Part shown: one piece after another, positions 6,272 to 40,199 of the stretch
Position numbering within the stretch: position 1 is the stretch's first letter
How the letters are laid out: the number at the start of each line of letters is the position of its first letter
DNA from: Flaccisagitta enflata
Taxonomy: Eukaryota
Length of the DNA: 64,000 nt
Assembly: GCA_965153355.1 (NCBI GenBank)
Contig: OZ231126.1
Coordinates: forward strand, 22,568,001 to 22,632,000
Direction: 5' to 3'
The notes under the pieces: generated by a model
The model's input: the letters and a program-made list of their open reading frames with translations, nothing else
Told to the model about the DNA's origin: nothing
Database searches by the model: none
Position numbers and translations under genes: made by a program

Positions 6272-6354
<83 letters not shown>

Positions 6355-6362
6355 TCTCTCTC

Positions 6363-7277
6363 TATAAATTACGCCCACGAGTTTCAACTGGCACTGTCTA
6401 TGAGCGTCTATCTGACTGACGACTTGTGGTGAAAGAAAGTTGGCCGATTGGAAAATAGGAAGGCGATCGTCTCGTTTATTCCATAAAAATTTCAACAACT
6501 GAAGAGAGGGGGAAAAATGAAAGGGAAAGTGGGCGTTACTTGTGATCAGCAAACGCAAAAGATAACATGAAATCGAGATAGGACACAATAAAGGACAGAA
6601 ACAGCACATGACAACATGTTCATCTTCTTCAGAGCCCATGCCACCTGATAATACCTGCCCCTGCCCCGGCCCATCCCATTAAATTCATCCATATCATCCC
6701 TATAGCAAGCTGATCGGGCAAGCGATAAAACCATACTAAAATCCGGCGATAAAAATGCAAAAGAGCAAAAGACAAAATAACAGACCGGAAAACAAGATAA
6801 AAAACAACGTTAATAAAAGCAAAGACGCGTCTATAAAACTTACTTTTAGGCCCACTTTCGTTGGTTTCAACCCACAGTCTGTCGAAGTCAAATTAACGTT
6901 AATTGTCCGTTCATAAGTTTATCTGCAATAAAAAGATGAGAGATTATTGAAATTAGTGAATTCCAAGGGCGCATTCAAACGATCACGAAAAATCAATCAA
7001 TCACTTTAAGAAGCAATGCCGTAAATAAATAAAATCAATCAATCCAAAAATTGGACGATACGAAAGACGAGTTACGTATGTTCGCCTACGTAATAAAAAC
7101 AAATGGCACAAAATACAAGGCGCAACCATATGGTTACCCATCTAGCGTTCAATATAAAAAATGGCGAGAAACAAAAGACGCGGGCATTGAATAATCGAGA
7201 AAGAGGAAAAGCCAAAAGCACGCAAAAGAGACAAAAGCACACATACTTAAGAAACGGACAGACATACATTTCTAACA
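6363..7277 (-). repeat. 3' LTR of the BEL/Pao element
   Basis: Direct repeat of 18722-19637 with only a handful of substitutions and small indels. The terminal ~8 bp are missing and replaced by the flanking (TC)n tract. Confidence 0.93.
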
Positions 7278-7292
7278 TTCTGCCCCATTTTT
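7278..7292 (-). other. Polypurine tract (plus-strand primer)
   Basis: AAAAATGGGGCAGAA on the minus strand lies immediately before the TGTTAG start of the 3' LTR. Confidence 0.85.
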
Positions 7293-7426
7293 GGAATTTC
7301 ACGAATTTCAAAAATCCGACATCTAGTTTCCAGTCGGGGAAACCCTACTAAAAAACCGATACTACCTTCCTTAAAAAAAATTTACATAGATACAGCCCCC
7401 GCCCCTCCCCCCCCGTCCACCGCCTC

Positions 7427-10400
7427 TTACATCCCCACCCTAACTATCAACAGATCGACGACTGCACGAATGATGATTCCCGTCCGGAAAGGATCCACCA
7501 CCAGCAAATTTTCAACGATCAACGATGACGCGGATGGAGACGAGGCGGCGACGAGGAGGTTGAGGCGCCCGTTCTGTGAAAGTTAAAGGGAAGGGGGGGG
7601 GAAGGGGAACGGGCCTTGGAGCACTCCAAGCCTGGGATTTGACTTGAGAGTGGAAAATAATAAGTGGGGGCATACTACTAAAACATGTCATACGAAAGTA
7701 TTCGTAATAATGACTAAAAAGACCATGTCTAAAACAAACACAACAAAAATGTACATGTTCCAAAGAACCAAACAAAACAAGACAAAATTAAATAAATTAC
7801 TAACTATATAATAAAAACGAATCTGTTAAATAAAAGAAAAATTAGTAAGCATCATGGAACGACCACATCACCTGCGCCTTCTCCATTACAGAGACGAGCG
7901 GGTCATTCCGGCTCCAACATCTCGTCAACTCGTGGGCGAAAGGCGATGAATGATGTCGTCAACGGCGACCGCATCGAAAGGCGCAGGTGGTGCAGCCGTC
8001 TGAGAGTGAATCTCCTCCCCGAAGGGAAGACAAAGAAAGAGAAAGAACAGGGGCAGATTGATTAGTAAAGTTCTTATCGTACACAGATTCAAATTTACCA
8101 CAAAAACTCAACCTCAACCCTTCCCAAACCATGATACTTACGCGGGCGTTTTTCGCCAGGCCCCGGGGCGGACGTCATTCCCACGCCCCGGGTAGCGCCC
8201 CCGACTTGGCCGGCCTGTCCATCGATGGGATGAGGATGTGATGGTGGAATACGATCCTCAGCGAATGGCGGCGCTCTCCACGCCATGTTGCAAATTGGTA
8301 GTTAAATTGAACAGCAACTGGGCGTGGCACCAATCAGCGTTTAGCTGGCGGTCTGATTTTTCCAAGGCCTGGTTCGATTTTTCTTATTCCCAGGCTTGGG
8401 AGCGTCTTTTTGCGACAGGATCTGCTGACCGACTTTTTCTGCAGGAGAAGACGCAGGAGGTGGAGATGCTGCATCGCAATTCGGCGCCAGTCAAAATTTA
8501 GGACGCACAGCGGACGCAGTTTTGAAGTCGACGGCCATAGCCGCCTTTGCGCGTTCCACCGCTTCCTCTTTCTTCTTAGCCTTCATCGCACAGGCCTGCT
8601 TCTCCTTTTCAAGCTGCTTCTCCAGTTCCACGACTCGCTTATTGCCTTTGACCACCTCATTGTCCGCAGCCATTGCTGCTCGACGAGCATCGTCTCTCTC
8701 CTTTTGGATGTTGCGCGAATCCTCTCGTCTAAGACAACGAGCCTTCAACTCGTTGACGCGGAGGAAGCGACGAAGAAGTCTTTTGGAAGCCTTGATGCTA
8801 AATTCTTCACCACCCCCAATGGAGCATTTGAGGTCAGTAAAGAGGCTTCTCGTAGCAATGACTCGGCGATGTGGTGTCCATGCGCAGGATCAAAGGCTGG
8901 ATCCGACGGGGGAGGCGGGTTCTGCACTTGCTGCAGACCTTGGGCAGACTCGGTTTGCTGACGAGGCGCTACACCAGCTTTAACAGATGCTGAAGCACCG
9001 CCAACTAGTTCGCTTCCTACCGCTGCTTTTGATGGCTGCGAGTGAAAGGAAGACGCTCCCGTCTGCTGACCAGAGACTTGAGGTTTAACAGCGGACGCCG
9101 AAGCACCGCAAGTAGAACCTCCCTTGGTTGCTGCTTTATGCTTCTTCCCAGCTCTCTTGGTCTTCTTCCCCTTTGCTGCCGCTGCCCCAGGCGCCTGATT
9201 CAGCTTCTGGGTTGCTGCCAACGTTGCCGTCGACGAACCGCTTGAAGCTTCTCCTTGGCCTTTGGGCGTTACTGCTGCAGGGGGCGCGCCTGGAGGCGCT
9301 TGAAGGGGGCCTTTGCTTTTGGAATTTGGCCCTTTTTGTAGACTCGGCACGTTGCGCGTTTGTGGAGTCTTTCCCCGACGTGATCTCTTCGACTGTTGTG
9401 AGGGAGTGACGTCACGAGGACCCTGTTGCTGCTGATTTGGGGGATGAACCAATCCAGGCGCGATTGACGACTTCCTGATGCTGTAGAGTGAATTGCCGCT
9501 GATGTAGCTGCGGCTGCGTCGAGCACAAATACCGCTGGTGGAGTTGCGGAAGCGTCGACGGAAGTTGCTGCAGATGAATTTGCAGTTGCATCAGGAGGCT
9601 TCGGAGCCGCATTCTTCCTCTTCGTCGCCTGGACCATGCGACGAACCTCCTTATCATGCTCCCTCCTTCTTTTGTTGCTTTGGATTTTGCGCTCCAGAGT
9701 CTCCGAGCCAAGCTCTGTTTGATTAGCCGATGAGCGCATGAGAGTTTGTTTGTTGCAGCATACCGAAAGTTTTTCAAACTCTTTGAAGAGGAGAGATACT
9801 TCGACGTCCGGACTGATGATACGATACCACCAACGCGCCTGCATCCGTTGGTGTTTCTCTTCCGGCGTCGCAGTGTCCACTTCCGGGTCAATGTCTTTCT
9901 CCACCGCCTCCCCATTCACTAACACCTCCTCCTCTGTCTCCATCCCCTCCTCCTCCACTCTTGCTCCATCATTGACCGATCTCTCTCTCTCTTCGCCCCC
10001 GCTGCGTTGACGTGCAGCTGCAGACGCTTGATCACGAGACGCTGGGCGACCGAAATCAAGGCAGAATTGGCGAGGCGATGGGGGCAAATCCGATGATGAT
10101 GACGCCGCCGCAGAAGTGGTGGATAAGTCCGTCGGCGGCCGATTGATCGAGATCCGCCTCGAACCTCCATCTTTGATGACCACCAATGGAGGAAGCGACG
10201 CAGGATCAACGGCTGGATGGCTGTTGACGATTTACCAACGCATCATCTTGTTGGCGCTTTTTATTCGCCATTTTGCGTCTACGACGGAAGGCGAGGTCGC
10301 CATTGAAGGCTGCCAACGCGACAGCCTCCTCCTCCGCCCGAACGACGTCGTGGATGCAGATCCTTCAGTGAGCCGTCGTTGAAGAGTCGATGAAGATCCA

Positions 10401-10549
10401 AGGATCCGTACGACGTCGACACGTCGGCTTCTGCCTCGAGACGCTGCTGACGGGACATCTTGACTCCGACGAGCGACTTCAAGATGCGAACTGACTTCGT
10501 AGATGGAATGACGTCGTCAGCGGAAGCTTTGAAATGTTCGTATTGAGAA
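7427..10549 (-). CDS. Putative accessory gene of the retrotransposon; frameshifted and probably spliced; function unknown
   Basis: Chain of overlapping GC-rich sense ORFs (10279-10578, 9269-10186, 8745-9452, 8491-8748, 8095-8286). Candidate splice sites: acceptor at 10550, donor at 8141, acceptor at 8000 or 8015, donor at 7871, acceptor at 7574. Confidence 0.6.
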
Positions 10550-10808
10550 CTGACAATGGTAAGAACGGATTTTGGCACAATAATATGTACATATAGACAG
10601 AGCGAATGAATCAGTGTTTGATGTGTAAGTGGAAATGGACAACATAATTAACAAGAGGAAAGATGAAAGCATGGATAATCAGAACCAAATATGAATAATA
10701 ACAACTCTTTGTAAATATAACAAGTCAGAGTCTCAATCACTCATATCTATAGTTACTAATGGACAGGCCCATGCGCCTTTTTCTCTCTCTCTCGAAACTT
10801 AGCGTTTT

Positions 10809-12452
10809 TTATGAGTCCAATTCCAGCCGCACGAGCTTCGTGCGGTCTTTCGTCACGATCTTTCCATCTTGGCGCCGGATGTGAGCCCTCCGGACATGGG
10901 CTGACGAACCCTCGACGCCCATGACACGTCCTAAACTCCAATTGTGACGAGGCAGCGTTTCGTCCACGACGATGACCATGTCATCCACCGCAAAGTCTTT
11001 CTCGGATCTCGACCATTTGCTTCGCGCGTGAAGAAGCGACAAATATTCGACCCTCCACGATTTCCAAAATGCATCCACACGCGATTGCGCACGCCTCCAT
11101 TGAATCTTCGCAGAGTCGGCGTCAGAGTTGACGCCTTGTTGCACCAGATCTAGAGGGGCGCGACCGGATGTCGATGGATTGAGGATATGATTCGGTGTGA
11201 GGGCCTCAGAGTCATTTGGATCATCGCTGAGCGCTGTCAGAGGACGGCGGTTGAGAATTCCTTCAACTTCGACAACGGCAGTGTTGAAGGCGTCGACGTG
11301 GAGGATGGCGCCAGTCGAGATGGAAGCAAGATGGCGCTTAAAGAGAGCGACGATTCTCTCCCACACCCCTCCATAGTGGGGTGTTCTCGGCGTGATGAAA
11401 TCCCACCGAAGGCCGCGCCGCTGCAATTCTGGAGTTGACGAGCGGTTCCACGCTTCCATTTCCTTCTTGAGGATATTATTGGCGCCTACTAGATTCGTCC
11501 CGCAATCTGAAGTGAAACGGCGGATTCCTGGGCGCCTTGCTGCAAAGCGGATGATTGCATTTACCATCGCATCGGCTGACATGTTGAAGAGCAATTCCAC
11601 ATGGACGGCGCGTGACACGAAACAGGTGAACACTGCGATCCACACCTTGTGATCAGCACGCCCGTTCATCTTCACCAGGAAATGCCCCATGACATCCAAT
11701 CCAGTCTCTGCAAAGACAGGTGCAGGATTGACGCGATTTGATGGAAGATTGGCCATTTGCTGATTTGCGTTCTTTTTAAAGTTCTTCTGGCATCTGAAGC
11801 ATGTGTTGACGACGCTCTTGACAGCCTGAAGACCTTTGTAATCCACACAAATTGGCAATTGGCACAATGTATGCTTTGCACCCGCGTGAAAATCATTGTG
11901 ATGATAATGGCGAATCAATGATTTCACATTCTTGTCTTTTGGCGGCAGGATGAAGGGAAATTTAGCGTCATGTGCGATGTCGGCGTTTTCCAATCGACTG
12001 CCGACGCGAATGATACCGTCGTCGTCGACGAAGGGATTCAATTTCCGCATCTCTTTATTCTTTATGATGAAGTCATGACGGCTTTCTGGTTTAAAGACTT
12101 TTCCCAACTCCAATTGTTCGAAGATGTCTGAATAATGATGCCGCTGCATTGACTTGACGAGCTGTTTGCGCGCCTCCTCCAAGACGTCTTGCGTCACTTC
12201 CGGTTTAGGAAGGAGATCCTTTGCTGCTCGTGTCTTCGCCCTTGGATACGCTCTCCATCTTTTGACTGCGATAAGAACCATGCCGATGATCCGCAACTTG
12301 TGCATCCATTTTCCCCGAGAAGCTGCTGCAAGAAGTATCGCGTCAGCCACTTGTCTCTTTTCACTTTCAGCCACATACAATGCGGCGACTTGTGCAGAAA
12401 TAGGGCACGTCGCGATGTTCGTCTTTGGCCATTGATCTTCGGGAAGACGCAA
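10809..12452 (-). CDS. pol: Pol: integrase (HHCC, DDE core, C-terminal domain)
   Basis: LNPFVDDDGIIRVGSRL, HHNDFHAG...CFRC, GLDVMGHF, SDCGTNLVGA, GGVWERIV, LTPNHIL, WSLGRV. Confidence 0.95.
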   Translation of the reverse strand: MRLPEDQWPKTNIATCPISAQVAALYVAESEKRQVADAILLAAASRGKWMHKLRIIGMVLIAVKRWRAYPRAKTRAAKDLLPKPEVTQDVLEEARKQLVKSMQRHHYSDIFEQLELGKVFKPESRHDFIIKNKEMRKLNPFVDDDGIIRVGSRLENADIAHDAKFPFILPPKDKNVKSLIRHYHHNDFHAGAKHTLCQLPICVDYKGLQAVKSVVNTCFRCQKNFKKNANQQMANLPSNRVNPAPVFAETGLDVMGHFLVKMNGRADHKVWIAVFTCFVSRAVHVELLFNMSADAMVNAIIRFAARRPGIRRFTSDCGTNLVGANNILKKEMEAWNRSSTPELQRRGLRWDFITPRTPHYGGVWERIVALFKRHLASISTGAILHVDAFNTAVVEVEGILNRRPLTALSDDPNDSEALTPNHILNPSTSGRAPLDLVQQGVNSDADSAKIQWRRAQSRVDAFWKSWRVEYLSLLHARSKWSRSEKDFAVDDMVIVVDETLPRHNWSLGRVMGVEGSSAHVRRAHIRRQDGKIVTKDRTKLVRLELDS

Positions 12453-12960
12453 AAATGCAGGACCGTGATGGAATTGACGCCATTTTTCGGCTTCATGGGC
12501 CTGGATGCCTCTGCTGCAGTGGTCCGCCGGGTTGTTTGACGAATCAACCCAGCGCCACTGTTGAGGATCAGACCGCTATGGATCTTGGAGAGACGATTGG
12601 CGAAAAATACAGGCCTCGGTTTCGCCGGATTGTAAATCATCTTCAGTGCAGATTCAGAATCGGACCAAAATCTGACGACAAGATTGTCCAAATCGATGGT
12701 CCTTCCGACGAAGCGTTTAAGCTGCACTGCTTTTTCTGCGGATACAATCTCGACACGTGGAACGCTGTTGTGATGAGAAGCACGTTTGGGATTAAGTGGA
12801 ATGACGTGGGATTTGGAGCGATGAACGAAATGTGAACATCTCCATCTCGATTGACTTGACGTCGATATGCAACTGCTCCATATCCGCCTTTTGGAGCCGC
12901 ATCGCAAAAGATCTCAATTGTTATTTCCGCAATGTCACTATTGTCGACGCCGCCATTCCT
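12453..12960 (-). pseudogene. pol: Pol RNase H segment, frameshifted
   Basis: IFCDAAPKGGYGAVAYRR, SKSHVIP...VPRVEI...FWSDSESAL...FFANRLSKI and NNPADHCSRG occur in the expected order but in three different frames. Confidence 0.85.
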
Positions 12961-14854
12961 CAGCGTTCAATTGGTATTGTTGTAGAAGAGGCCAAGATGA
13001 AGTGTAGCGGAAGAAGGACTCCTCGACGCTCTCTTCCAAGGGCGAATCCCATCCCACTTCCTGTGGACGACAGAGTTGAAGATGTCGTCTGCCGATGTAT
13101 GCGCTTGGGCTCCAAAATCCCAATGGATCATAAAGTTTGGCTTGCATGGAGACCAATTGACGAGGTGTTTTCGCTCTAAGAGTTTTGAATTCCTCGTCGC
13201 AGATGAAGATGAAGACGTCTTCCGCCGGAAGCCATGAGACGCCCAACACCTTCGTCGGCGCATCATCTTGCTTATCTGAGATGGGAATTGGCACGTTCGG
13301 ATCTCCATCCATCAATTGCCGCGCATTACTTTTCCACTTCACAAGATCCATCCCGCCTTCAGCCATCGCCGCCACTGCATCCACCTTCAACTGCAATGCT
13401 TCGTCGACCGAATCCCCACCCCCACTTCCGTCGTCGACGTAGTAGCAGAAGCGAATAAGATCGTAGTCGTTGTAGGGATATTTGGGCCGGATTACTTCAG
13501 CATGCTTTCTGACGGTGAAAGACGTGACGAATGAGCTGGATTGGCTGCCGAAGACATGTGATAAGAACAGATTCAAAATGGCTTCTCGTAAAGTACGGTC
13601 TTTGAACCAAAAGAATCTGAACAGATCAGCGTCGTCAGGATGGACGCGGATCTGGTGGAAGAACGCCTTTATATCACACATAAAGGCGATCTTCCACTGA
13701 CGAAAACGCATGAGGATGTCCATCAAGCTGTTCATCAAGTTTGGACCTCCGACGAGCAAATCATTGAGTGAGATCCCGTCGGTCGCCGCACGCGCATCGT
13801 GACATACGCGCGTTTTGCCGCGCAATTCAACAATATGAAGCGGCAAGTACCAGCGCGGCTTCTCAATGCCGTCGTCGTCGTCGACATTGTCAATCTCAAC
13901 CGCCACTCCCGTCTCGTAAAACTTCTCGATTTCACGGAAGACTCTTTCTTTGAAGGCTGGATCACGCTTGAAGCGAAAACGTTGGTTACCGAGCCGCTTC
14001 ATCGCAGTCGGTCGTGATTTCACTCTTCTCAGAATTTCCATGATTTTTTCGTGATGAAATTTCCATGTGACGGGAGCAAAGTACTTTTTCACAATTGGGC
14101 AAAAATATGTCTTTTCCTCTAACGTTTTGCACGCTCTGACATTTTCAAGGGAATCACCCATCTCCTCTTGCGAGACGATTGATGATGCAAAGTCATGGTA
14201 GAAGATGCGGTCAATGTTGCTGTTGAGGACGCGATTGTCGAGGATGCGATCGATGTTATCGTTGAGGACGCGATCATCCGTCGCGATAGCGTTGATCGAC
14301 GCAATATCTCGTCCTCTCTTGCCCGTTTTTCCACATACAGTCCAACCGAATAGACATCTGAAGCAAGTCAAAGATCCTGAAGGCCCTCGACGGATTTCTT
14401 GAGCGACGGCGGCATCCGCATGCGCCGCTCCGATGATCATCATCACACCGCCTTCAGCTTCTGGAAATTTTATGCCTTCGATGTGAGGTTGGTCGGATAG
14501 GTCGCGGAGAAAAGGAGGAATGTCGCGTTCACTCGTTAACAAATCACCCACCAATGCGTCGTTGACGTCGACGATGTATTCCTCGTCGACAGATTGCATA
14601 GTGAATGATGCGATGAAACGATCCTCAACAACATGACTTCCCACAGTAATCACCGTCATTTGCACTGTTTTTGTTGGAATCAGAAGACTGCGAATGACGC
14701 TGGTACTGATCACGTCGCGATCAGCGCCTGAGTCGATCATAGCGTATATTGTCCTCTGCGCACCCGAAGAATTGTTTATGATAGTCACTGGAACGATCGG
14801 ACGGACAACGTCGTCGAATGAAGAGACGGACCGCGACGTTGCCGTCGCCGCCAG
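12938..14854 (-). CDS. pol: Pol: aspartic protease, reverse transcriptase and start of the Pao RNase H region
   Basis: YAMIDSGADRDVIS (protease). WYLPLH...RVCHDA...LNDLLVGGPNL...CDIKAFFHQI...YYVDDG (RT). KVLGVSW...LYDPLGFWSP. In frame with gag across a TGA. Confidence 0.95.
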   Translation of the reverse strand: MAATATSRSVSSFDDVVRPIVPVTIINNSSGAQRTIYAMIDSGADRDVISTSVIRSLLIPTKTVQMTVITVGSHVVEDRFIASFTMQSVDEEYIVDVNDALVGDLLTSERDIPPFLRDLSDQPHIEGIKFPEAEGGVMMIIGAAHADAAVAQEIRRGPSGSLTCFRCLFGWTVCGKTGKRGRDIASINAIATDDRVLNDNIDRILDNRVLNSNIDRIFYHDFASSIVSQEEMGDSLENVRACKTLEEKTYFCPIVKKYFAPVTWKFHHEKIMEILRRVKSRPTAMKRLGNQRFRFKRDPAFKERVFREIEKFYETGVAVEIDNVDDDDGIEKPRWYLPLHIVELRGKTRVCHDARAATDGISLNDLLVGGPNLMNSLMDILMRFRQWKIAFMCDIKAFFHQIRVHPDDADLFRFFWFKDRTLREAILNLFLSHVFGSQSSSFVTSFTVRKHAEVIRPKYPYNDYDLIRFCYYVDDGSGGGDSVDEALQLKVDAVAAMAEGGMDLVKWKSNARQLMDGDPNVPIPISDKQDDAPTKVLGVSWLPAEDVFIFICDEEFKTLRAKTPRQLVSMQAKLYDPLGFWSPSAYIGRRHLQLCRPQEVGWDSPLEESVEESFFRYTSSWPLLQQYQLNAEEWRRRQ

Positions 14855-17800
14855 TCATGCCGTGGCGTTAGGAGAGATGATTTCCGTTGGATCGGCTGCC
14901 TCCGTCGTCGACGGAGCTGTTGGTGCTGCTGCAGCCGCATCCTCTGACTTTTTGAAGGGAGCCAGCGGTACTTTATTTCCCTGCTTATTTTCTCCTTTCT
15001 TCTCTTCCTTTTCTTCTTTCTTGTAGGTGCGCCCGTGGAGAATCGTTGCGTGCCGCTTCTTGCAGGTTTGGCAAGTCGGTCTGTTCGCGCATCCTTTGGC
15101 GTTGTGTCCTGGCGCGAGGCAGTGGAAGCAAAGACGACGAGACATGATCTTTTGAACTCTCGCGTCCACTTCCAACTCTAATAGCTGATGACACTCTTCT
15201 GTTTGATGCATTCCACTGCAGACGTTGCAGCGGTCCGTCGACTGCGTCTTTTGCTTGCCATTGGTCAAAGCATCTTCATATGATGATGGCGCTTCTTTCT
15301 CTGTAGTTGCGACTGCTGCCACTGATGCTGTTTTGCAGCTTGCGCCTTTGTTGCGCTGAATCACCGCCCATGTCTCGATCATATTGACCAAGTTGTCAAA
15401 TGAAAATAATTGTCCATTTTGGGCCGCTTCATGTTGCTTTTCCCAGAATTTATCTGCAAGATGAGGGACCCTCTTGTTGAGGATCTCCTGCAGCAGCTCG
15501 TCACGATAGCATTGTTGCACTTCTCCACAGGTCCTCGCAATCTTCTTTGCCTTTTGCAACCTTGCAGACAAATTGAAATGCCTTGCATGGTCAGCCGACT
15601 GGATCTTCGCCTCCGCGACGATTTCGTTGAACAGCGCCGCAATGTTGCAGCGCCTTGCCATAAAGACGACGTCCATTTTTGCGAAGGCGTCGTCAATCTC
15701 TCCTCTTGCTGTCGCTTCAGTTGCATCAATCGTCGCAGTTTCAATGATCTCTTTTGCCGGACCAGCAAACCACTTAGGCAATTCCAATAAGATGTCCATT
15801 TGCGTCAAGCCTTCATGCTTCTCAGCATCTTTGAACTTCCTCTTCCACATCATGAAGTCGGTGGATGAAAGCTCCTGCAGAGGCTTCTCAGGTCTTGCTC
15901 TCTCCAACGCTTTGAGGCCGACCTCCCTTGCTCGCATGAGATCATTGTACGTCGCTCTTTCCAAAAACCTGTCCAGAGCCGGATTGTTGGGCATCTGAAC
16001 GTGGACTTCCGGTTGACGGGCTACTTGATGATGCTCCACTTGATGATACGCTGGGGGTTGTTGGGTAAAGGCGTATTGACCCCCGACTTTTACCGGAGAT
16101 CTCTTTTTGGTGGTTTTTACACTCCACCCAACTTCTTCTTGCTGATTCATCTGTTGTTGACGATCATCTTGATGGAATCGGGGAGCATCAAAATCTTGGC
16201 GGACGTACTGTCGCTGTTGTTGTTCTTCTTTACGTTGTTTCTCTTCTGCTCTCGCTGCGGCAAGGTCAAAGTCTCTCTGCTGAATCTGCATCTTCAAACT
16301 ATCCACTTCTTGCTGCAAACGTTGATTCTGCTGGATGACTTCCGCTTGAGGCGTTGCTAGAGGCGCTTGCGCTACTTTTGGCGCCTTCGGCTGCAATCCA
16401 CTCGTTGTCTTCTTGGGAGCGACTTTTCTCCTCTCCTTATCTTGCAGCTGCTGTGCCAACTTCGCGTCAGCGGCCTCTTGCCTCTGCCTCCTGCGCATCG
16501 CCTCCGTTGCTTCACCTCCGCTTCCGGCTGTGTTGAAGACCTTTTCCTCTTGATGGGGAAGACCAGTCTCCCTTCTAGCAGAACCAATCTGCTTCTCGAA
16601 GATCACTTCCGGTGCGGTAGGGAGAATCGTTGCTGCTGGGGTTTGGTGATGCTGATCTTGATGCTGTTGCTGTTGTTGAAGCCGTTGCTGCTGCCACTGT
16701 TGATGTTGAAGCTGCTGTTGCTGGTCAGGACGCTGTTGCTGTTCATTCTGCTGTTGCAGTTGACGCTGGCGCTGTCCTTGCTGCTGCTGCTGCTCCAACT
16801 GTTGCTGCTGCTGCATCGGCTGCTTGACGGATGTTTCCACTGACTGCACATGACGTTGCTGTATGTTCGAATTGAACAATCCAGGATTGAAATTTCTGAA
16901 GATAGATCGACGGTCTTTTGGCGGATGCTGCGGCTGCTGCTGGTCCAGCTCAGACAGTTGTCTAAGCTTCACATCCCGCTGCTCTAAAGCTCCACCAATG
17001 CCGCCGTCGTTCAGGCTATTCCAGTGCTTTCGTTGCATCTCTGCCGCATTGTTGAATACTCCTGCCCTTCTATCTTCATCTCGTTGCTGCTGCTGGCGAA
17101 AGTTACACATTCTGTCGTATAACTCTTTGTCTTCTTGTGATGAGCTTCGCTGTTGGAATCCCAATGGCACCGCGATCGGCGCCTTTGGAGCTGTTGCTGC
17201 ACCACCACCTTCACCTTCAGCCATCATGCGCAGACGTTGATCTGCAAGGCGTTGCTGTCTCTCTTCTTCTGTCTCCTCACTGACGTTCATGCTTTCGACA
17301 GGATGGTTATTTGAAGCTGGAGGATCCACTACCACCGCTGGGATCGCGGCGGAGGGTTGCTGTTGCTGCTGCAGTTGCTGTTGCATATGTTCTCCTGCAT
17401 CGTTTTGCCGCTGTCGTTGTTGTTCATGCGGCTGCATTGCCGTTTGATGTTGTCGCAGCTCTTGTTGTTGTTGCTGCTGCTGCTGTTGCTGCTGTTGATC
17501 GTGTTGTTGCTGTTGTTGAGCCACAGGTTGTGGCGCCGGCTGCAGGATCTGATGTTGTTGTTGATCTTGTTGACAAAATTGTTGGAGTTGCTGCAACTGC
17601 TGCTGCTGCAACAGCTCTTGCTGCTGCCGTTGAGCCGTAGTTTGCTGCTGCTCCTGTGGCGGTTGGAGTTGACGTTGCTGTTGGAGTTGCTGCTGCTGCA
17701 TCTGCAATTGATGCTGCTGCTGTTGCTCCTGTTGCTGTCGCTGCTCCTCCTCCCGTTGTTGCTGCTGCATGTCGTCAATCAGCCGACGGCCTTGTCGCAT

Positions 17801-18659
17801 TTCCTCCTCCAACTCCCTACCCCATCTGTCTCTCTCAGCACTCCTGTTGACGAGCGTCGCCTCGCCCTCTCCTGCAGCGTCAATCCGTTGATGATCCCGC
17901 GGCCTCTTGCAGGCGTCGGCGTCGTCGAGATCCGCAAGCATGTCGTCAGCTTGCTCCATCGGAGGCGCACGCGCAGGGTTCAATTTCCGAGACCAAATCT
18001 GATACCCATTGATTGGCAGCATCTCCTCTTTGGATCGCGGCAGATTTAAAAATTGACGCCAGTTGGAGATTGCGCACCATGTCGCAGGACCGGAGGTGGT
18101 AGATACTCGGATCCGTCGGGGTTTGGCGAAGACGTTAGCATCCTTGGGTGGGAGCGCGGTAGCATTTGTCACGGGCGGCGTGGGTGTCAGTTGGGAGACA
18201 TTCCATGAGAATTCATTAGCGGGTCTTTGCGATTCCCAATGTCTGTGCACTGCGTTCCACGGTGTCGGCGTTGGAAGGAAAACCCTCTGGATAGTTTTCC
18301 ACGATCAAAGCGCATGGAGTCCCATTCGCGCAGTTCGGCGCAAAGTAGGCGCCGCTGAATCGAGAATTCGCCCGGGCATCGAGTGAGCCATTTGCCTTGC
18401 ATACGATGATGGTAAGCCATATCGAGAAGTCGTGCCGACAGCCAGTTCCTGAAGCGGCGTCGTCGAAGTCGTTCGTTCCTTCGGTTCCAGTAGCTTCGGC
18501 GTCGAAAAGGCGCCGGCATCCTTCCATTTCCGCAGTGATGTCTTTCCTCATTGCGCGCAAACGATTCGACCTCGGACACTGATTCAAACCGAAGTGAGAT
18601 ACACGAGATGACGTTGAAGCGGTCGAGCAGTGTATCGTCGTTGCAGCAACGGCTGCCAT
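14855..18659 (-). CDS. gag: BEL/Pao Gag with a very long Gln-rich N-terminal half; frameshift near 18250
   Basis: ORF 14855-18250 has CNVCSGMHQTEEC, CFHCLAPGHNAKGC and CQTCKKRHATILH, the BEL-type triple zinc knuckle. An upstream ATG at 18659 (MAAVAATTIHC...) lies just after the 5' LTR in a different frame. Confidence 0.88.
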
Positions 18660-18713
18660 TGTCCAATTTCGTTTCGGAGGTCGAGAGACGGAAAGAGTGA
18701 TAGTTTTTAAATT

Positions 18714-19635
18714 TGTTGAAATATAAATTAGCCCCACAGTTTTCAACTGGCACTGTCTATGAACGTCTATCTGACTGACGACTTGTGGTGAAAGAAAATT
18801 GGCCGATTGGAAAATAGGAAGGCGATCGTCTCGTTTATTCCATAAAAATTTCAACAACTGAAGAGGGGGAAAAATGAAGAAAGGGAAAGTGGGCGTTAAT
18901 TGTGATCAGCAAACGCAAAAGATAACATGAAATCGAGATAGGACACAATAAAGGACAGAAACAGCACATGACAACATGTTCATCTTCTTCAGAGCCCATG
19001 CCACCTGATAATTCCTGCCCCTGCCCCGGCCCATCCCATTAAATTCATCCATATCATCCCTATAGCAAGCTGATCGGGCAAGCGATAAAACCATACTAAA
19101 ATCCGGCGATAAAAATGCAAAAGAGCAAAAGACAAAATAACAGACCGGAAAACAAGATAAAAAACAACGTTAATAAAAGCAAAAACGCGTCTATAAAACT
19201 TACTTTTAGGCCCACTTTCGTTGGTTTCAACCCACAGTCTGTCGAAGTCAAATTAACGTTAATTGTCCGTTCATAAGTTTATCTGCAATAAAAAGATGAG
19301 AGATTATTGAAATTAGTGAATTCCAAGGGCGCATTCAAACGATCACGAAAAATCAATCAATCACTTTAAGAAGCAATGCCGTAAATAAATAAAATCAATC
19401 AATCCAAAAATTGGACGATACGAAAGACGAGTTACGTATGTTCGCCTACGTAATAAAAACAAATGGCACAAAATACAAGGCGCAACCATATGGTTACCCA
19501 TCTAGCGTTCAATATAAAAAATGGCGAGAAACAAAAGACGCGGGCATTGAATAATCGAGAAAGAGGAAAAGCAAAAAGCACGCAAAAGAGACAAAAGCAC
19601 ACATACTTAAGAAACGGACAGACATACATTTCTAA

Positions 19636-19637
<2 letters not shown>
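18714..19637 (-). repeat. 5' LTR of the BEL/Pao element
   Basis: On the minus strand it begins TGTTAGAAATG (19637) and ends TTTCAACA (18714), giving TGTT...AACA termini. It matches 6363-7277 and has a minus-strand AATAAA at 18834-18839. Confidence 0.93.
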
Positions 19638-19731
<94 letters not shown>

Positions 19732-20237
19732 TTCTCATTTTCCCGCATATTCATTGTCTTATTCCCCCTACCGCCTATGTGGTTTTTACCGGGAGAAATG
19801 AGGCGCAAAAATGAAAGAAGATGAAAAAAAAAAGAGCAGCCATGAAAGCCTTTTTTTTTCGCGGCTGCCGCCATCACAGGCCATCTAGTGTCCATATGCG
19901 GCAAATGACGTCTGGCTTTTAATGAAAACTCATAAAACGTGGTCGTTAAAAAACTCGCTCACTGGATATCCATAAAAGGTGTTTGCACTCACCGGTAGTT
20001 TATAACTCTCTTTTTTTTTTTTCAATTTCCAACTGTTGAGTTTCAAAAAGATCATTTCGTTCTATAATAGGAAAAGTGTAATTCAGTAAACTTATTTCTC
20101 GGTAGTATCAACAGTTGATTCAACGTGTCATTTGTGAAATAGATAAGGTTTTGTTCCGGGTCCTTCTCCTATATGATAACTGTGTTCGTGAGTGTGAGCC
20201 GCTGTGTGACCTCTTACCTAACTCCTCTCACTCTCAC

Positions 20238-24460: not shown

Positions 24461-24689
24461 CCCCTGCCCCCACATTTGCTGAGTCACTGTTGTGGCTTTG
24501 GTTCCATCGGCGCTTGTTTTTCCCCTTCACTCATTTTTCATTCGTTCCTTGAAAGAAATCTTGTTTCTGTTTCTCATCATTTTTTTCCATTTTTTGAATA
24601 ATGACTTTGTTTATTATCAGAAAATGGAAAGGCCACTTGAGAATTGGAATGGCGCTCTGACTGCGTTTTAAATCGTTTCCCTCTTTTTC

Positions 24690-24734
24690 TCTCATTTCTG
24701 TTCTTTCTTTCTTTCTTTCTCTCTTTCTTTTTTT

Positions 24735-24798
<64 letters not shown>

Positions 24799-24851
24799 TT
24801 TTGGTTCCTTTCTTATTTTCTTTCTTTTTCTTTCTTTTTTCTTTCTTCAGT

Positions 24852-24919
<68 letters not shown>

Positions 24920-24923
24920 TCCT

Positions 24924-25011
<88 letters not shown>

Positions 25012-25028
25012 TCCTCCTTTCTTTCCTG

Positions 25029-25095
<67 letters not shown>

Positions 25096-25100
25096 TTCTT
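24690..25100 (+). repeat. (TTTC)n microsatellite
   Basis: Directly visible. Similar tracts at 29535-29676 (AAAG) and 34255-34600. Confidence 0.95.
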
Positions 25101-25858
25101 CCTTTTTTCTCACTTTCTTTCTTTTTAGGCGCGCCCAAGCACCTCTATAGGTATAACCGGCTGTGTCCGTCGGCTGGTCGGTTGGTTGGTTGGTCGGTAA
25201 CGCAAACGTTTGACGACCTGCATGGCGCGTCTACTTGGTCTCGTTTTCCAACTTGTCCGTCTAACAACATAATGTAAATAGGCTCATCATTGTCAGTTGT
25301 TTTTTCACCACTGAATTCAACAGAGCGAATGCATCATTTGACGAACCACTAAGTTTTTGACCTGAATCATTTTTCCAATGAGAAATCTTTGTTAAGTGGG
25401 AAGTAGAATAGGGAATTTGCTTGCAGCAGAGCGTCAGAAAAATTCAATTTGAAGCCCAACCAACCACCCACCCGTCCGCTACGATAGTGTGACCCCGCGC
25501 CACTTTTTGATATTTTTTTCCGTTGTTCTTTTTTCCTTGCCCATTTTTTTTTTCAATGCTAGATTTCAAGAACGACTTATAGTTGTTTCCTATTATCAAG
25601 GCCGTTGCGTTTCGTCGAAGATATCCGCAGGTCTTAGAGATATCAAGCGATAGTTTGAATGCAAGAATACAAACCATGCATAGAATTTTATCTTTTGTTT
25701 TGTTTTTTCGAACTTTCACTTTCGATAATCTTCATCATTTTATCGATCGTCGTTCAATAGCGTTAGTAGTAGTCGTAGAATCGCCTATCTGCACCGTCTC
25801 TACCCTCAAATAAAACAACATCACAGGACGTAAACGACGATACCAAGAGGGAGATCCA

Positions 25859-30099: not shown

Positions 30100-30289
30100 A
30101 TAAAGTTGAGTCCTCGATAAACTTACAACGGTGCTAAAGTACTCTGCTATCTTACGAAGAAAAATACTTAGAATAGAATTTATTTTCCGTAATTTGCATG
30201 GTGCAGTCATAATCTACCTAGATATGGATGATGAACTCACTGACGTTATCTGACCACCGGAAAATGAGCAGCGCACACGCATATCTTAA

Positions 30290-31607
<1,318 letters not shown>

Positions 31608-31978
31608 TCTCTTCGTAAATAGACGATAGCACGATGAAAGCGAGGCGACAAACTTATTTGAAATCGTTAACGACGAAAGCGTCAACAAAAAAGGAAACTC
31701 GGGAAAACATTCCGATGCCATAAAACCTAGAGCACTGAAAGAAACAATCGGAAATCTTTCCCTTTTAATGGCTACTTTCTCGTTTTTTTTCCCTTTCTCT
31801 TTCCTTTTTTCCCCTTTTTACTCTTGCTCCCCCTTTTTTAAGTCATCTAGGGGATTGTAAAGTTTGTCCCTTTTGTTTCCTTTTCCATCAGTCCCCATGA
31901 GTGACTCATGAACAGTTACATCATCATCATTAGTATAACGAACGTCAACGTGTTAACATCATCATCTTCATCATCATC

Positions 31979-35113: not shown

Positions 35114-36130
<1,017 letters not shown>

Positions 36131-36625
36131 TAGGTAACCACAACCATCAAAACATTGACGGCGACTACGACGACCACAGCTAGAAGCGTCACACTCGCGA
36201 CGACGGAACGACATCAAAGGTGGATAGGCTCATCAAAGATTCAGCGGAGGTTATTGCATAATTCAGGCATCTAGTCGCTGCTGCTCGTAATTAGTGACCG
36301 CCTTTAAGAACTCTTTTGATGTGGAATAACCACGAATAACGACGCCGCCGGACATTGCATCAGCACAAGAAGAGCGAAAAGGGATGAGGATAAGGGAAAG
36401 GGCATGTGTAGAGAAGGCATGGAAGCAGTCACGCAGAATGGGGGGGAGGGAACTGGAAGAGATGAAGGGGGGGGGGCGGAAGTTGATAGAAGACATGGAA
36501 ACAGAGAGGAGCAGGAGATTGGAGGGTTTAAGGGGGTAGTTGAGAGAATGACGCGATCTAGGAATGAAATGGACCATAGGCATTGTGAGAGAACCGTGAA
36601 TGAATGTGCTTCACACGATGGACAA

Positions 36626-39424: not shown

Positions 39425-39645
39425 TTTTAGTTGTGGACACGCAACATTATCAGAGGCCTTGTCCGTCCATTGGTCAGTTGGTCCGTCCGTTGGTCTCTGG
39501 TGATTGAGTCAAAAAATGTAAAAACGCGCACAATCATGATTGACTATGTATGTGAGCAAGCATTAGATGGGGGAGGGTATGGATGGGGGTTATATGCCTT
39601 TGCCCACCCGTCCGCAACGATATTGTGACCCCGCGTCACTTGTTT
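39425..39645 (+). mobile_element. HINE-like copy, second subfamily, inside the homeobox intron
   Basis: TTTTAGTTGTGGACACGCAAC head and GCCCACCCGTCCGCAACGATATTGTGACCCCGCGTCACTTGTT tail, shared with 42532-42801. Confidence 0.7.
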
Positions 39646-39826
39646 GCTTATGGCCCTGTCTTTCTTTCTCATTCTTTACGCCTGTGTCTCATTTTTTCCC
39701 ATTTCCCCTCCCTCCCTCTTCCTCAACTCTCCCATCTCCCCTCTCTCTTCCTCAACTCTCCCATCTCCCCTCCCTCTTTCTCAACTCTCCCATCTCCCTC
39801 TCATCTCAACCTTCCCACCCTCTCAG

Positions 39827-40168
39827 TTTGGTTCCAGAATAGAAGAATGAAAGAGAAAAAAGAAAAACAAAAGATCTCAGAACTGAACGCTGAAGCCCGC
39901 GCCAAACACAGCAAAGTCAAGACTTCCTCGTCGCCATCTCACGACGAAAACGAGAATCACGACGACGATGACGACGACGACAAAGACTCTTTCGACGACG
40001 CCACGGACGCCCTTTTGGACAGCAACAAAGCAGACCCCAAAAGCAACAACAACAACAACGGCGCTATCGCCCGAGGTCTACCATTACCCGCCTCCAAAAA
40101 CCCACCCACTTCTTTACTCGAACACCAGCTACAACAACAGCAACAACATCAACAACAGCAGCAGCAGC

Positions 40169-40199
<31 letters not shown>

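What the first reader, a model, noticed from the sequence alone, without database searches (positions are those of the whole stretch)
7427..10578. BEL/Pao retrotransposon carries a ~3-kb non-env, apparently multi-exon accessory gene between integrase and the 3' LTR
Seen: after the integrase stop (10809) and an AT-rich spacer, a pyrimidine-rich acceptor (..CTTACCATTGTCAG| at 10550) opens ~2.4 kb of GC-rich, sense-strand coding-like sequence broken by frameshifts. Stitched together it gives roughly 800 aa, with an acidic patch, a possibly folded segment (RMQARWWYRIISPDVEVSLLFKEFEKLSVCC), basic NLS-like runs, Ala/Ser/Pro linkers and a coiled-coil-like stretch (REDSRNIQKERDDARR...EKQLEKEKQ). Known: extra ORFs at this position in BEL/Pao elements such as roo, Tas and some Cer elements are envelope glycoproteins. 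I see no signal peptide, Cys-rich ectodomain or clear transmembrane anchor in the main body. Inference: an undescribed accessory protein expressed from a spliced subgenomic RNA, possibly nuclear (anti-silencing, targeting or RNA handling).
Basis: partly seen in the sequence, partly recalled or inferred. Interest (0 to 1): 0.85.

Follow-up and report, generated by a model that had tools for sequence, protein, structure and literature searches.

The report
Orphan third gene in BEL/Pao retrotransposon
A very large BEL/Pao-type jumping gene carries, behind its integrase, a decayed copy of a real but unclassified protein gene of about 705 residues that is neither an envelope gene nor split into exons.

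Summary
The element is a 13,274-bp BEL/Pao LTR retrotransposon on the minus strand (6364-19637), inserted in a (CT)n microsatellite. The coding-like sequence behind the integrase is real. It is not multi-exon, not about 800 aa, and does not start at an acceptor at 10550. It is one ORF running from the ATG at 10457 to the stop at 8350-8352. In this copy 7 frameshifts and 1 in-frame stop break it.

Uninterrupted versions of 703-710 aa exist in four 90%-identity clusters with 87, 81, 11 and 4 member sequences. A diverged full-length relative of 673 aa is colinear at 47% identity.

The protein has no Pfam, PDB or fold match beyond generic coiled coils. It has no signal peptide or membrane segment, so it is not Env. 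It is basic (pI 9.8). In the AlphaFold2 model, 447 of 710 residues score pLDDT below 50. It has a conserved helical module and a confident 78-residue helix, which is predicted to pair as an antiparallel homodimer.

Contigs from three RNA libraries cover the gene and run straight across 10550. No splice joint was seen, which does not exclude one.

Verdict: a genuine, lineage-restricted, non-env ORF3, present here as a pseudogene. Its function is inferred only.

The parts
19638..19736 (.). (CT)n microsatellite flanking the 5' LTR (target site context)
   Evidence: TRF; flank read
18723..19637 (-). 5' LTR (915 nt, TGTTAG...AATTTAT(A))
   Evidence: 903 matches, 8 mismatches, 7 gap letters against the 3' LTR
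14855..18304 (-). gag-like frame, 1149 codons stop to stop, with a Gln-rich middle part. No Pfam family. It ends in a stop that is in frame with the next ORF.
12938..14854 (-). pol part 1: protease-like, RVT_1, start of Peptidase_A17
12194..12913 (-). pol fragment in another frame carrying the end of Peptidase_A17 (profile positions 113-162). This shows that pol is frameshifted in this copy.
10809..12575 (-). pol part 3: Integrase_H2C2, rve, DUF5641; stop at 10809-10811
10458..10808 (-). 351-nt AT-rich spacer (GC 0.38) with 5 ATG. It contains the proposed acceptor ...TTGTCAG at about 10550.
   Evidence: crossed without a break by an RNA-library contig
8350..10457 (-). ORF3 pseudogene. 670 of 701 aligned codons are identical to the intact 710-aa relative P0009. 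It is broken by 7 frameshifts (near 10371, 10336, 10214, 9460, 8771, 8737, 8717) and 1 in-frame stop (8493-8491).
9610..9870 (-). Part of ORF3 coding the conserved helical module (P0009 residues about 200-290; nearly invariant Q-A-R-W-x-Y ... F-K-x-F-x-K-L) followed by basic clusters. Coordinates are approximate.
8520..8905 (-). Part of ORF3 coding the C-terminal helical domain (P0009 residues about 521-650), including the 78-residue helix predicted to dimerise. Coordinates are approximate.
7278..8349 (-). 1.07-kb tail between the ORF3 stop and the 3' LTR. No protein match. It ends in a purine-rich tract (AAAAATGGGGCAGAA, 7292-7278) next to the LTR.
   Evidence: covered by an RNA-library contig over 7618-8385
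6364..7277 (-). 3' LTR (914 nt)
6274..6363 (.). (CT)n microsatellite flanking the 3' LTR

Best explanation
The stretch is the third gene (ORF3) of a large, very abundant BEL/Pao LTR retrotransposon family. In intact copies it is one uninterrupted ORF of 703-710 codons, starting at a conserved Met about 350 nt behind the integrase stop. The window holds a pseudogene copy.

Shown: the gene is real, it belongs to the element, and it stays open in many copies and through divergence down to 47% identity. It lacks every envelope hallmark that was tested.

Predicted: the protein is basic and mostly disordered. It has an N-terminal motif, an acidic patch, a conserved helical module next to basic clusters, a long Lys/Pro/Ala/Ser/Gln-rich linker with net charge +21, a C-terminal helical domain whose long helix pairs as an antiparallel homodimer, and a basic tail.

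Inferred mechanism (about 1 in 3): a non-enzymatic, self-associating adaptor that binds nucleic acid. The target would be the element's RNA or cDNA, or chromatin, probably in the nucleus. It would serve the element's own expression, RNA handling or integration, in the way accessory proteins of complex retroviruses and non-env extra ORFs of other LTR retrotransposons are thought to.

How ORF3 is translated (spliced subgenomic RNA, internal promoter or reinitiation) is open.
For: Element membership:
- ORF3 lies between a DUF5641/rve integrase and the 3' LTR.
- P0018 joins this same integrase (107 of 157 aligned positions identical to the window's IN, E 7e-66) in frame to the ORF3 C-terminal domain in another, deleted copy.
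- In DNA run X1, summed contig depth over ORF3 (about 0.29-0.49 million per bin) is of the same order as over pol (about 0.45-0.68 million).

Intact forms:
- P0009 to P0012 (703-710 aa) represent clusters of 87, 81, 11 and 4 members.
- 11 of 15 listed members of cluster 1 are 710 aa, and 9 of 15 of cluster 2 are 703 aa.

Long-term maintenance:
- P0075 (673 aa) aligns end to end with P0009 (338/717 identical, E 8e-149).
- Further subfamilies at 34-55% identity share the start motif and conserved blocks.

Not Env:
- The highest 19-residue Kyte-Doolittle mean is 1.32.
- The N-terminus is hydrophilic.
- There are 6 Cys in 710 aa and the pI is 9.84.
- No Pfam family was found at E<=10.
- No Foldseek hit at E<=0.001 was found in PDB or BFVD.

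Architecture (AlphaFold2):
- Mean pLDDT is 53, with 447 of 710 residues below 50.
- Predicted helices are 201-217, 221-245, 254-284 and 570-647.
- Block-mean pLDDT is 90 or higher for residues 531-640.

Self-association, residues 521-665, two copies:
- Score 0.55, against 0.00 for the best of 3 controls.
- The mark was reached by 21 of 30 proteins solved as pairs of one chain and 0 of 23 solved as single chains (microbes). On eukaryotes it was 17 of 29 and 0 of 30.
- The runs agree in at least 79% of contacts, and partner pLDDT is at least 65.
- Contact pairs such as 621-621, 607-635 and 600-642 indicate an antiparallel arrangement.

RNA:
- Contigs from three RNA libraries of three studies cover ORF3.
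Against: - No DNA of other copies could be fetched, so no dN/dS was computed.
- The selection argument rests on open, colinear frames. Gene callers report only open frames.
- Context is unknown for the diverged relatives. They come from unnamed assemblies.
- Conservation is about equal in the predicted disordered linker and the ordered C-terminal domain (P0014: 93/199 against 66/130 identical). This is not the usual picture for a linker.
- The central module folds with low confidence when predicted alone (mean pLDDT 56.6).
- The dimer prediction is a model score. Coiled coils may pass by likeness to solved ones, and my alignment was not used.
- ORF3 may be dispensable. This copy has 8 breaks in 2.1 kb of ORF3 against at least 3 seen in 7.5 kb of gag-pol. 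DNA contigs that skip nearly the whole ORF exist at low depth (joints 7987/7990 to 10445).
- RNA libraries can contain DNA, and contigs show no strand.
- The nuclear or nucleic-acid role rests on charge and basic clusters only.
Confidence: 0.6

Rival explanations
1. One reading: a multi-exon accessory gene whose coding begins at a splice acceptor at 10549/10550, with the frame changes marking introns or exon joins.
For: A pyrimidine tract plus AG is present at about 10565-10550. ORF3s of LTR retrotransposons are said to be typically expressed from spliced messages (PMC5408684, passage read).
Against: - Natural relatives are continuous across all 7 frame-change sites.
- The conserved start Met lies at 10457, 93 nt below the proposed acceptor.
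- RNA-library contig X16 record 10 lies unbroken over 9087-10774. No RNA joint or listed loose end is at 10549. However, only 22 of 283 loose ends were shown, and contigs drop rare forms.
Confidence: 0.04
2. A degenerate or highly diverged envelope gene, as in other three-gene BEL/Pao elements.
For: - The position between pol and the 3' LTR is where env-like genes of BEL/Pao lie (ICTV profile PMC8742986, passages).
- A long helix and two RxxR motifs are present.
- EIAV gp45 and the SV5 fusion core appear among the tied generic coiled-coil matches (Z 6.4-6.5).
Against: - There is no hydrophobic N-terminus and no segment reaching membrane-span hydropathy in 6 relatives (maximum 1.32).
- There are 2-6 Cys, a basic pI, and mostly predicted disorder.
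- No viral glycoprotein match was found by Pfam, PDB sequence profile or Foldseek.
- The predicted pairing is an antiparallel dimer, not a trimeric hairpin core (a trimer was not tested).
Confidence: 0.04
3. A host gene fragment captured by one element lineage and carried along passively, with no role for the element.
For: - It is an orphan sequence with low-complexity composition.
- ORF3 carries more breaks than gag-pol in this copy.
- ORF3-less deletion derivatives exist.
- Gene capture by LTR retrotransposons is documented (PMC5408684, abstract and passages).
Against: - A passive passenger should not stay open and colinear from the same start to the same C-terminal tail down to 47% identity, nor in four clusters with 87, 81, 11 and 4 members.
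- A profile search of 1.84 billion representatives returned only 22 proteins, all alignable to this family's blocks and none with another architecture.
- No longer fused forms were found, which is weak evidence.
Confidence: 0.12
4. A structural or chaperone partner of the particle rather than a nuclear regulator. It would be a self-associating, basic, RNA-coating protein working like LINE-1 ORF1p or a second nucleocapsid.
For: - A coiled coil plus highly basic disordered regions (net +21 over residues 346-520).
- Predicted self-association.
- The LINE-1 ORF1p coiled coil is among the tied generic structural matches (Z 6.4).
Against: - There is no RRM, zinc knuckle or other RNA-binding domain by Pfam.
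- There is no similarity to the element's own gag (best E 0.5).
- The match to ORF1p is no better than to hundreds of unrelated coiled coils (725 chains with Z>=5).
Confidence: 0.2

Closest known systems
Non-env ORF3s of bdelloid rotifer LTR retrotransposons (Juno, Vesta, TelKA; types GDSL, DEDDy, CC, TM), PMC5408684
   Same: An extra sense-strand ORF between pol and the 3' LTR of an animal LTR retrotransposon. It is family-specific and not an envelope gene. Some of the bdelloid types are defined only by coiled-coil content.
   Different: [quoted passage not shown] That these are Ty3/gypsy-like and not BEL/Pao is my recollection.
- Their best-described ORF3s are enzymes.
- No sequence relation to this ORF3 was found in any search here. 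Their sequences were not compared directly.
Env-like third genes of BEL/Pao elements (Belpaoviridae), as summarised in the ICTV profile PMC8742986 and in PMC3118150
   Same: Same host element class and the same position behind the integrase.
   Different: - No signal peptide, membrane anchor, Cys-rich ectodomain or viral glycoprotein homology.
- The element is 13.3 kb, against the 4.2-10 kb range quoted for the family.
Additional ORFs (aORFs) of plant LTR retrotransposons (PMC7264820; search listing and start of abstract only)
   Same: Conserved extra ORFs of unknown or regulatory function beside gag-pol.
   Different: Plant Ty1/copia and Ty3/gypsy hosts. No homology was tested or expected.
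Accessory or regulatory proteins of complex retroviruses (Rev/Rex/Rec-type, Tas/Bel1-type). Recalled, not tested.
   Same: Encoded near the 3' end. Basic clusters plus an oligomerisation element. They serve the element's own RNA expression.
   Different: Those are much smaller, are made from multiply spliced RNAs, and are unrelated in sequence. The likeness is functional speculation only.

Membership tests
BEL/Pao (Belpaoviridae) LTR retrotransposon | Pao-type pol signature (Peptidase_A17) and DUF5641 integrase tail | tested here: met
   Peptidase_A17 E 7e-08 and DUF5641 E 2e-19. Second half of Peptidase_A17 in a shifted frame. Nearest atlas clusters are DUF5641/Integrase_H2C2, score 0.98.
BEL/Pao (Belpaoviridae) LTR retrotransposon | Domain order PR-RT-RH-IN between two LTRs | tested here: met
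   Order is Asp_protease_2 (weak), RVT_1, Peptidase_A17, Integrase_H2C2, rve, DUF5641 along the minus strand. LTR pair of 914/915 nt at 99.1% identity.
BEL/Pao (Belpaoviridae) LTR retrotransposon | tRNA primer-binding site after the 5' LTR | not tested
   The sequence after the 5' LTR was read but was not compared with tRNAs.
BEL/Pao (Belpaoviridae) LTR retrotransposon | Genome size 4.2-10 kb (descriptive range in PMC8742986 and PMC3118150) | tested here: not met
   13,274 bp from LTR end to LTR end. This is a range of described members, not a criterion.
Retroelement envelope (Env-like) glycoprotein | N-terminal signal peptide | tested here: not met
   The first 30 residues are charged and polar in all subfamilies. 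No dedicated predictor was available.
Retroelement envelope (Env-like) glycoprotein | Transmembrane anchor or fusion peptide | tested here: not met
   Maximum 19-residue hydropathy is 0.64-1.32 in 6 relatives.
Retroelement envelope (Env-like) glycoprotein | Traceable homology to a viral glycoprotein | tested here: inconclusive
   No Pfam family, no PDB sequence hit below E 0.16, and no Foldseek hit at E<=0.001 in PDB or BFVD. The model is mostly low confidence.
Multi-exon (intron-containing) gene | Coding segments separated by introns, with a joined form only in RNA | tested here: not met
   Uninterrupted 703-710-aa ORFs exist in other copies. The window differs by 7 frameshifts and 1 stop. 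No RNA joint lies inside ORF3.
Non-env additional ORF (ORF3/aORF) of LTR retrotransposons | Sense-strand ORF between pol and the 3' LTR, conserved within the element family | tested here: met
Non-env additional ORF (ORF3/aORF) of LTR retrotransposons | Own expression route (spliced or separate transcript) | tested here: inconclusive
   RNA-library contigs cover ORF3 but show no joint. Contigs cannot show starts, strand or rare forms.
LINE-1 ORF1p-like RNA chaperone | Coiled coil followed by RRM and C-terminal domain | tested here: inconclusive
   A long helix is present. There is no RRM by Pfam. The ORF1p coiled coil is only one of many tied matches (Z 6.4).
bZIP transcription factor | Basic region directly before a parallel leucine zipper | tested here: inconclusive
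   No bZIP family by Pfam even at E<=10. The predicted pairing is antiparallel. bZIP chains appear only among tied generic matches.

The most novel reading that the evidence does not exclude
ORF3 founds an undescribed class of retroelement accessory protein. It would be a dimeric, largely disordered, basic scaffold that a BEL/Pao lineage of marine arthropod-like hosts has kept under selection. It would act on the element's RNA or on chromatin (export, transactivation, integration targeting or escape from small-RNA silencing) and contribute to the family's extreme abundance.
Probability: 0.15. Interest if true: 0.7.

Novelty: new variant of a known kind. Interest (0 to 1): 0.45.

Why it matters
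In the texts I read, BEL/Pao elements have one to three genes, and the third is env-like (PMC8742986 and PMC3118150, passages only). Non-env third genes have been documented in animal LTR retrotransposons of bdelloid rotifers (PMC5408684).

This case adds a conserved, orphan, non-env ORF3 to BEL/Pao. The family is 13.3 kb long, which is beyond the quoted size range. It is so abundant that 29,851 DNA contigs of one run lie on it, and its sequence is held by marine metagenome runs of several studies.

If the protein helps the element, it offers a handle on how retroelements without an envelope gain accessory functions. Intact natural sequences exist, so localisation, oligomer state and nucleic-acid binding can be tested directly.

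It does not change any general principle. Its function remains unknown.

Tried and rejected
- **Own genome:** not held.
- **Earlier findings of this scan:** none by place or by sequence.
- **DNA of other copies:** two scans of metagenome contigs and one of viral contigs found no relative. So there is no dN/dS and no context for diverged relatives.
- **Pfam:** nothing above noise on the window pieces, on P0009, P0003, P0012, P0036, P0074 and P0075, or on 15 family members. Seadorna_VP2 appeared in 3 of 15 at E>=0.037. Lin-8, GGDEF and HTH_68 were single weak hits. All were rejected.
- **ESM Atlas on P0009:** best score 0.81, below the lead threshold.
- **PDB sequence profile:** best E 0.16.
- **Foldseek:** PDB best E 3.7 (J-domains), BFVD best E 0.007 with rmsd 57 Å. 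The J-domain lead was rejected: probability 0.04, and no HPD motif seen in the aligned sequences.
- **VIA-align wide:** only generic coiled coils on residues 566-650, Z<=6.7, all tied.
- **Central module folded alone:** mean pLDDT 56.6, too low to search with.
- **Similarity of ORF3 to the element's own gag:** none.
- **Fused longer forms of ORF3:** none found, which is weak evidence.
- **Splice joint at 10549:** not seen in the RNA contigs of X16, X17 and X18. This gives no verdict, because only contigs were available and most loose ends were not listed.
- **Codon-position analysis of contig differences:** not attempted. Only 12 of the listed differences fall in ORF3.
- **Literature:** searches found no paper describing a non-env ORF3 in BEL/Pao. 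The search tool cannot match the slash in 'BEL/Pao'. Subscription journals and supplements were not seen.
Full report
**1. What is at the place**

The window holds one LTR retrotransposon on the minus strand. Its LTRs lie at 6364-7277 and 18723-19637. They align with 903 matches, 8 mismatches and 7 gap letters. Both outer ends abut (CT)n arrays at 6274-6363 and 19638-19736, so the element inserted into a microsatellite. It is 13,274 bp long.

Reading down the minus strand, the parts are:
- A gag-like frame of 1149 codons (18304-14855). It has no Pfam family, and its middle part is Gln-rich.
- A frame carrying protease-like, RVT_1 and the first part of Peptidase_A17 (14854-12938).
- A shifted fragment carrying the end of Peptidase_A17 (12913-12194).
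- A frame carrying Integrase_H2C2, rve and DUF5641 that stops at 10809-10811.

The nearest language-model clusters of the integrase are DUF5641 proteins that are commonest in Arthropoda. That is a lead, not a placement.

**2. The observation**

Behind the integrase stop comes a 351-nt spacer with GC 0.38. After it comes sequence with GC 0.55 whose sense-strand translation is open only in pieces. The pieces are not chance. The 320-residue piece found 8 database proteins (E down to 1e-130). One of these, P0007 (427 aa), runs without a break across places where the window changes frame.

A second search with P0007 returned four full-length proteins: P0009 (710 aa), P0010 (703), P0011 (709) and P0012 (705). 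They represent 90%-identity clusters of 87, 81, 11 and 4 member sequences. Of the 15 listed members of cluster 1, 11 are exactly 710 aa. Of the 15 listed members of cluster 2, 9 are 703 aa. The other listed members are shorter fragments or start further upstream.

**3. State of the window's copy**

tblastn of P0009 finds a single copy in the window, in four pieces in three frames. A frame-aware alignment places P0009 on 10458 to 8344, with 670 of 701 aligned codons identical. It shows 7 frameshifts (near 10371, 10336, 10214, 9460, 8771, 8737, 8717) and one in-frame stop at 8493-8491. P0010 gives the same break places.

The ORF is 10457 to 8350, about 2.1 kb and about 705 codons. It is not about 2.4-3 kb or about 800 aa. 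The remaining 1.07 kb down to the purine-rich tract at the LTR (7292-7278) matched no protein.

RNA-library contigs that span the break places differ from the window by 13, 8 and 9 gap letters (X16 record 10, X17 record 18, X18 record 25). This fits breaks that are not general to the family. The per-site table did not list these places, so I did not verify each one.

**4. Start of the gene and the splice idea**

All subfamilies that reach the N-terminus begin with Met followed by S/P-x-R-x-Q-R/G-L (P0009 to P0012, P0016, P0024, P0027, P0033, P0075). This Met is the ATG at 10457, 93 nt below the proposed acceptor at about 10550. Some database members start further upstream, in the AT-rich spacer (for example P0020, and members of 747-803 aa). 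That extension is Cys/Tyr/Phe/Leu-rich and is not shared by the diverged subfamilies, so I read it as a gene-caller artefact.

I laid contigs of three RNA libraries (three studies) and one DNA run on 7285-19100.
- The RNA contigs cover the whole element, including ORF3.
- X16 record 10 (1693 nt) lies unbroken on 9087-10774 and so crosses 10550.
- X18 record 26 links the integrase end to the spacer (10555-11057).
- None of the 15 joints listed in the table is from an RNA run (4 more rows were not shown); three RNA joint rows appear in the companion table, all within the Gln-rich gag region (16227-17768).
- No listed loose end lies at 10549.

The limits matter. These are contigs, which drop rare forms and carry no strand. 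An RNA library can contain DNA. Only 22 of 283 loose ends were shown. A spliced subgenomic mRNA therefore remains possible but has no support here. Introns inside the ORF are excluded.

**5. Is it a gene kept by selection, and does it belong to the element?**

A profile of the family, searched against 1.84 billion representative proteins, returned 22 proteins at E<=0.001 (16 at <=1e-10, 7 at <=1e-30). All align to blocks of this family, and most are fragments from short contigs. They fall into several subfamilies at 34-55% identity to P0009.

A cluster look-up added P0075 (673 aa). It aligns with P0009 from the first Met to the C-terminal tail, with 338 of 717 positions identical and E 8e-149. 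By inference from how often random changes create stops and frameshifts, a sequence drifting neutrally to that divergence would not stay open and colinear over about 2 kb. I take this as the main evidence for purifying selection. It is indirect, because no DNA of other copies could be fetched.

Evidence that the gene belongs to the element:
- The window itself shows ORF3 inside the LTR pair, behind the integrase.
- P0018 has an N-terminal part that is this same integrase (E 7e-66 to the window's IN; Integrase_H2C2 by Pfam). It is joined in frame to the ORF3 C-terminal domain, so it is a deletion derivative of another copy.
- Summed DNA contig depth over ORF3 is of the same order as over pol.

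DNA joints that skip 7987/7990 to 10445 (depths 2006 and 9338, against about 0.3-0.5 million nearby) show a minority of copies that lack almost exactly ORF3.

**6. What the protein looks like**

- P0009 has pI 9.84 and 6 Cys. Its highest 19-residue hydropathy mean is 1.32, and the six relatives tested range from 0.64 to 1.32. Its N-terminus is hydrophilic. So there is no signal peptide or membrane span by these simple measures.
- Residues 151-200 are acidic (net -12).
- Residues 346-520 are Ala/Gly/Pro/Ser/Gln/Lys-rich with net +21.
- Basic clusters lie at residues 67, 265, 282, 360, 434 and 633.

AlphaFold2 with a 22-row alignment gives mean pLDDT 53, with 447 of 710 residues below 50. The ordered parts are:
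- A short N-terminal helix (3-13).
- Three helices at 201-217, 221-245 and 254-284 (block pLDDT 50-90).
- A confident C-terminal domain (block means 90 or higher for residues 531-640) with short helices at 535-543 and 550-559 and one helix at 570-647.

The three-helix module holds the family's most conserved positions (Q-A-R-W-x-Y, F-K-x-F-x-K-L). Folded alone, from a diverged natural fragment, it reached only mean pLDDT 56.6. Its fold is therefore not established and was not searched.

Two copies of residues 521-665 were predicted to bind.
- Score 0.55, against 0.00 for the best of 3 controls.
- The mark was reached by 21 of 30 proteins solved as pairs of one chain and 0 of 23 solved as single chains (microbes). 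On eukaryotes it was 17 of 29 and 0 of 30.
- The runs agree in at least 79% of contacts, and partner pLDDT is at least 65.
- The least-error contacts (621-621, 607-635, 603-638, 600-642) describe an antiparallel pair centred near residue 621.
- This supports self-association but does not show it. Coiled coils can pass by likeness to solved ones. A trimer was not tested.

**7. Comparison with known families**

No Pfam family was found, even at E<=10 for P0009 and at E<=1 for 15 members. The PDB sequence profile gave nothing below E 0.16. Foldseek gave no hit at E<=0.001 in PDB or in predicted viral structures. The Foldseek-independent aligner returned only tied generic coiled coils (Z<=6.7) on residues 566-650. 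Among these were the ATP synthase b subunit, SNAREs, lamin, the LINE-1 ORF1p coiled coil, EIAV gp45 and bZIPs. None stands out. The protein atlas gave nothing (best 0.81). ORF3 is unrelated to the element's own gag. No longer fused form was found, which is weak evidence. ORF3 is therefore an orphan.

**8. Mechanism**

Shown:
- A conserved third gene of the element.
- Not Env by the tested hallmarks.
- Present in contigs of RNA libraries.

Predicted:
- A mostly disordered, basic protein.
- A conserved helical module.
- A dimerising long helix.

Inferred: a non-enzymatic, self-associating adaptor that binds nucleic acid or chromatin and serves the element's expression, RNA handling or integration. 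The acidic patch, the basic clusters beside the helical module and the +21 linker are what such proteins often look like. This rests on general knowledge, not on a test. I put about 0.9 on 'real, element-borne, single-ORF, non-env gene', about 0.6 on self-association, and about 1 in 3 on the nuclear or nucleic-acid adaptor role. A particle-associated RNA chaperone role gets about 0.2. A passive captured host fragment gets about 0.1. A degenerate env and the multi-exon reading get about 0.04 each.

Three observations sit against a strictly required function:
- This copy has 8 breaks in 2.1 kb of ORF3, against at least 3 visible in 7.5 kb of gag-pol (one in-frame stop at 14855-14857 and at least two frameshifts around 12938-12575). 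The gag-pol count is a lower bound.
- ORF3-less deletion copies exist.
- Conservation is no higher in the ordered C-terminal domain than in the linker.

**9. Novelty**

Passages of the ICTV profile (PMC8742986) and of 'BEL/Pao retrotransposons in metazoan genomes' (PMC3118150) describe one to three genes, with the third env-like, and sizes of 4.2-10 kb. The bdelloid rotifer study (PMC5408684; abstract and passages) shows that animal LTR retrotransposons can carry non-env ORF3s (GDSL, DEDDy, CC, TM types). It also warns that coiled coils and RxxR sites do not make an env. Plant aORFs are a further precedent (PMC7264820; listing and start of abstract only).

Four full-text searches found no description of a non-env ORF3 in BEL/Pao. 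The tool cannot match the slash in the name. Subscription journals and supplements were not seen. I rate this as a new variant of a known kind. It is of moderate interest to transposon specialists and is testable, because natural intact sequences exist.

**10. Occurrence**

The 3.6-kb stretch is held by 20 of 24 listed runs. Of these, 14 hold half or more of its words and 6 are RNA libraries, from 11 studies. Most are marine metagenomes, and two are runs of a coded organism A. In one of those DNA runs, 29,851 contigs lie on the element. The family is therefore extremely abundant in its host.

Noticed in passing
window 6274-6363 and 19638-19736: The element is flanked on both sides by (CT)n arrays of about 45-50 units, so it inserted into a dinucleotide microsatellite. 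The target-site duplication cannot be read inside the repeat.
   Followed up: partly
window 14855-14857: The gag-like frame and the protease/RT frame are in the same reading frame, separated by a single stop codon. This is either programmed readthrough or a mutation of this copy.
   Followed up: no
window 16637-17770 (minus): The 1149-codon gag-like frame has no Pfam family and contains a long Gln-rich region (runs of Q with interspersed E, R, L, H). Together with ORF3 and the 1-kb tail, this makes the element 13.3 kb, beyond the 4.2-10 kb quoted for BEL/Pao.
   Followed up: partly
window 9915-9412 (minus), overlapping ORF3: A second frame over ORF3 is open for 167 codons here. It appears as Arg/Lys-rich database proteins of 230-238 aa that start MGRRWRK or MTRKW (P0004, P0005, P0006; clusters of 9, 3 and 6 members). 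It is probably a by-product of composition, but an overlapping ORF was not excluded.
   Followed up: no
window 7987/7990 joined to 10445 (DNA run X1): DNA contigs skip 2454-2457 nt with 7-10 other letters between. This removes ORF3 from just after its start codon to about 360 nt past its stop (depths 2006 and 9338, against about 0.3-0.5 million nearby). It is a minority ORF3-less derivative.
   Followed up: partly
window 8350-10457 versus 10809-18304: Breaks are concentrated in ORF3: 8 in 2.1 kb, against at least 3 seen in 7.5 kb of gag-pol. This copy may descend from a lineage whose ORF3 was already dead, or the GC-rich sequence may be indel-prone. The gag-pol count is a lower bound.
   Followed up: partly
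protein P0018 (database): An in-frame chimera of this element's integrase (zinc-binding and core region, with an internal gap) and the ORF3 C-terminal domain. It is a deletion derivative of another copy.
   Followed up: yes
window 35114-36133 and 39556-40416 (plus strand): Two open frames carry the two parts of a homeodomain: profile positions 1-45 (E 1.7e-11) and 38-57 (E 7.5e-05). This looks like a host homeobox gene with an intron inside the homeobox, about 15 kb from the element.
   Followed up: no
window, for example 1032-1538, 24632-25200, 30207-31800, 45330-45966: The window is crowded with long arrays of short tandem repeats (periods 8-14). These create spurious open frames on both strands.
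   Followed up: no
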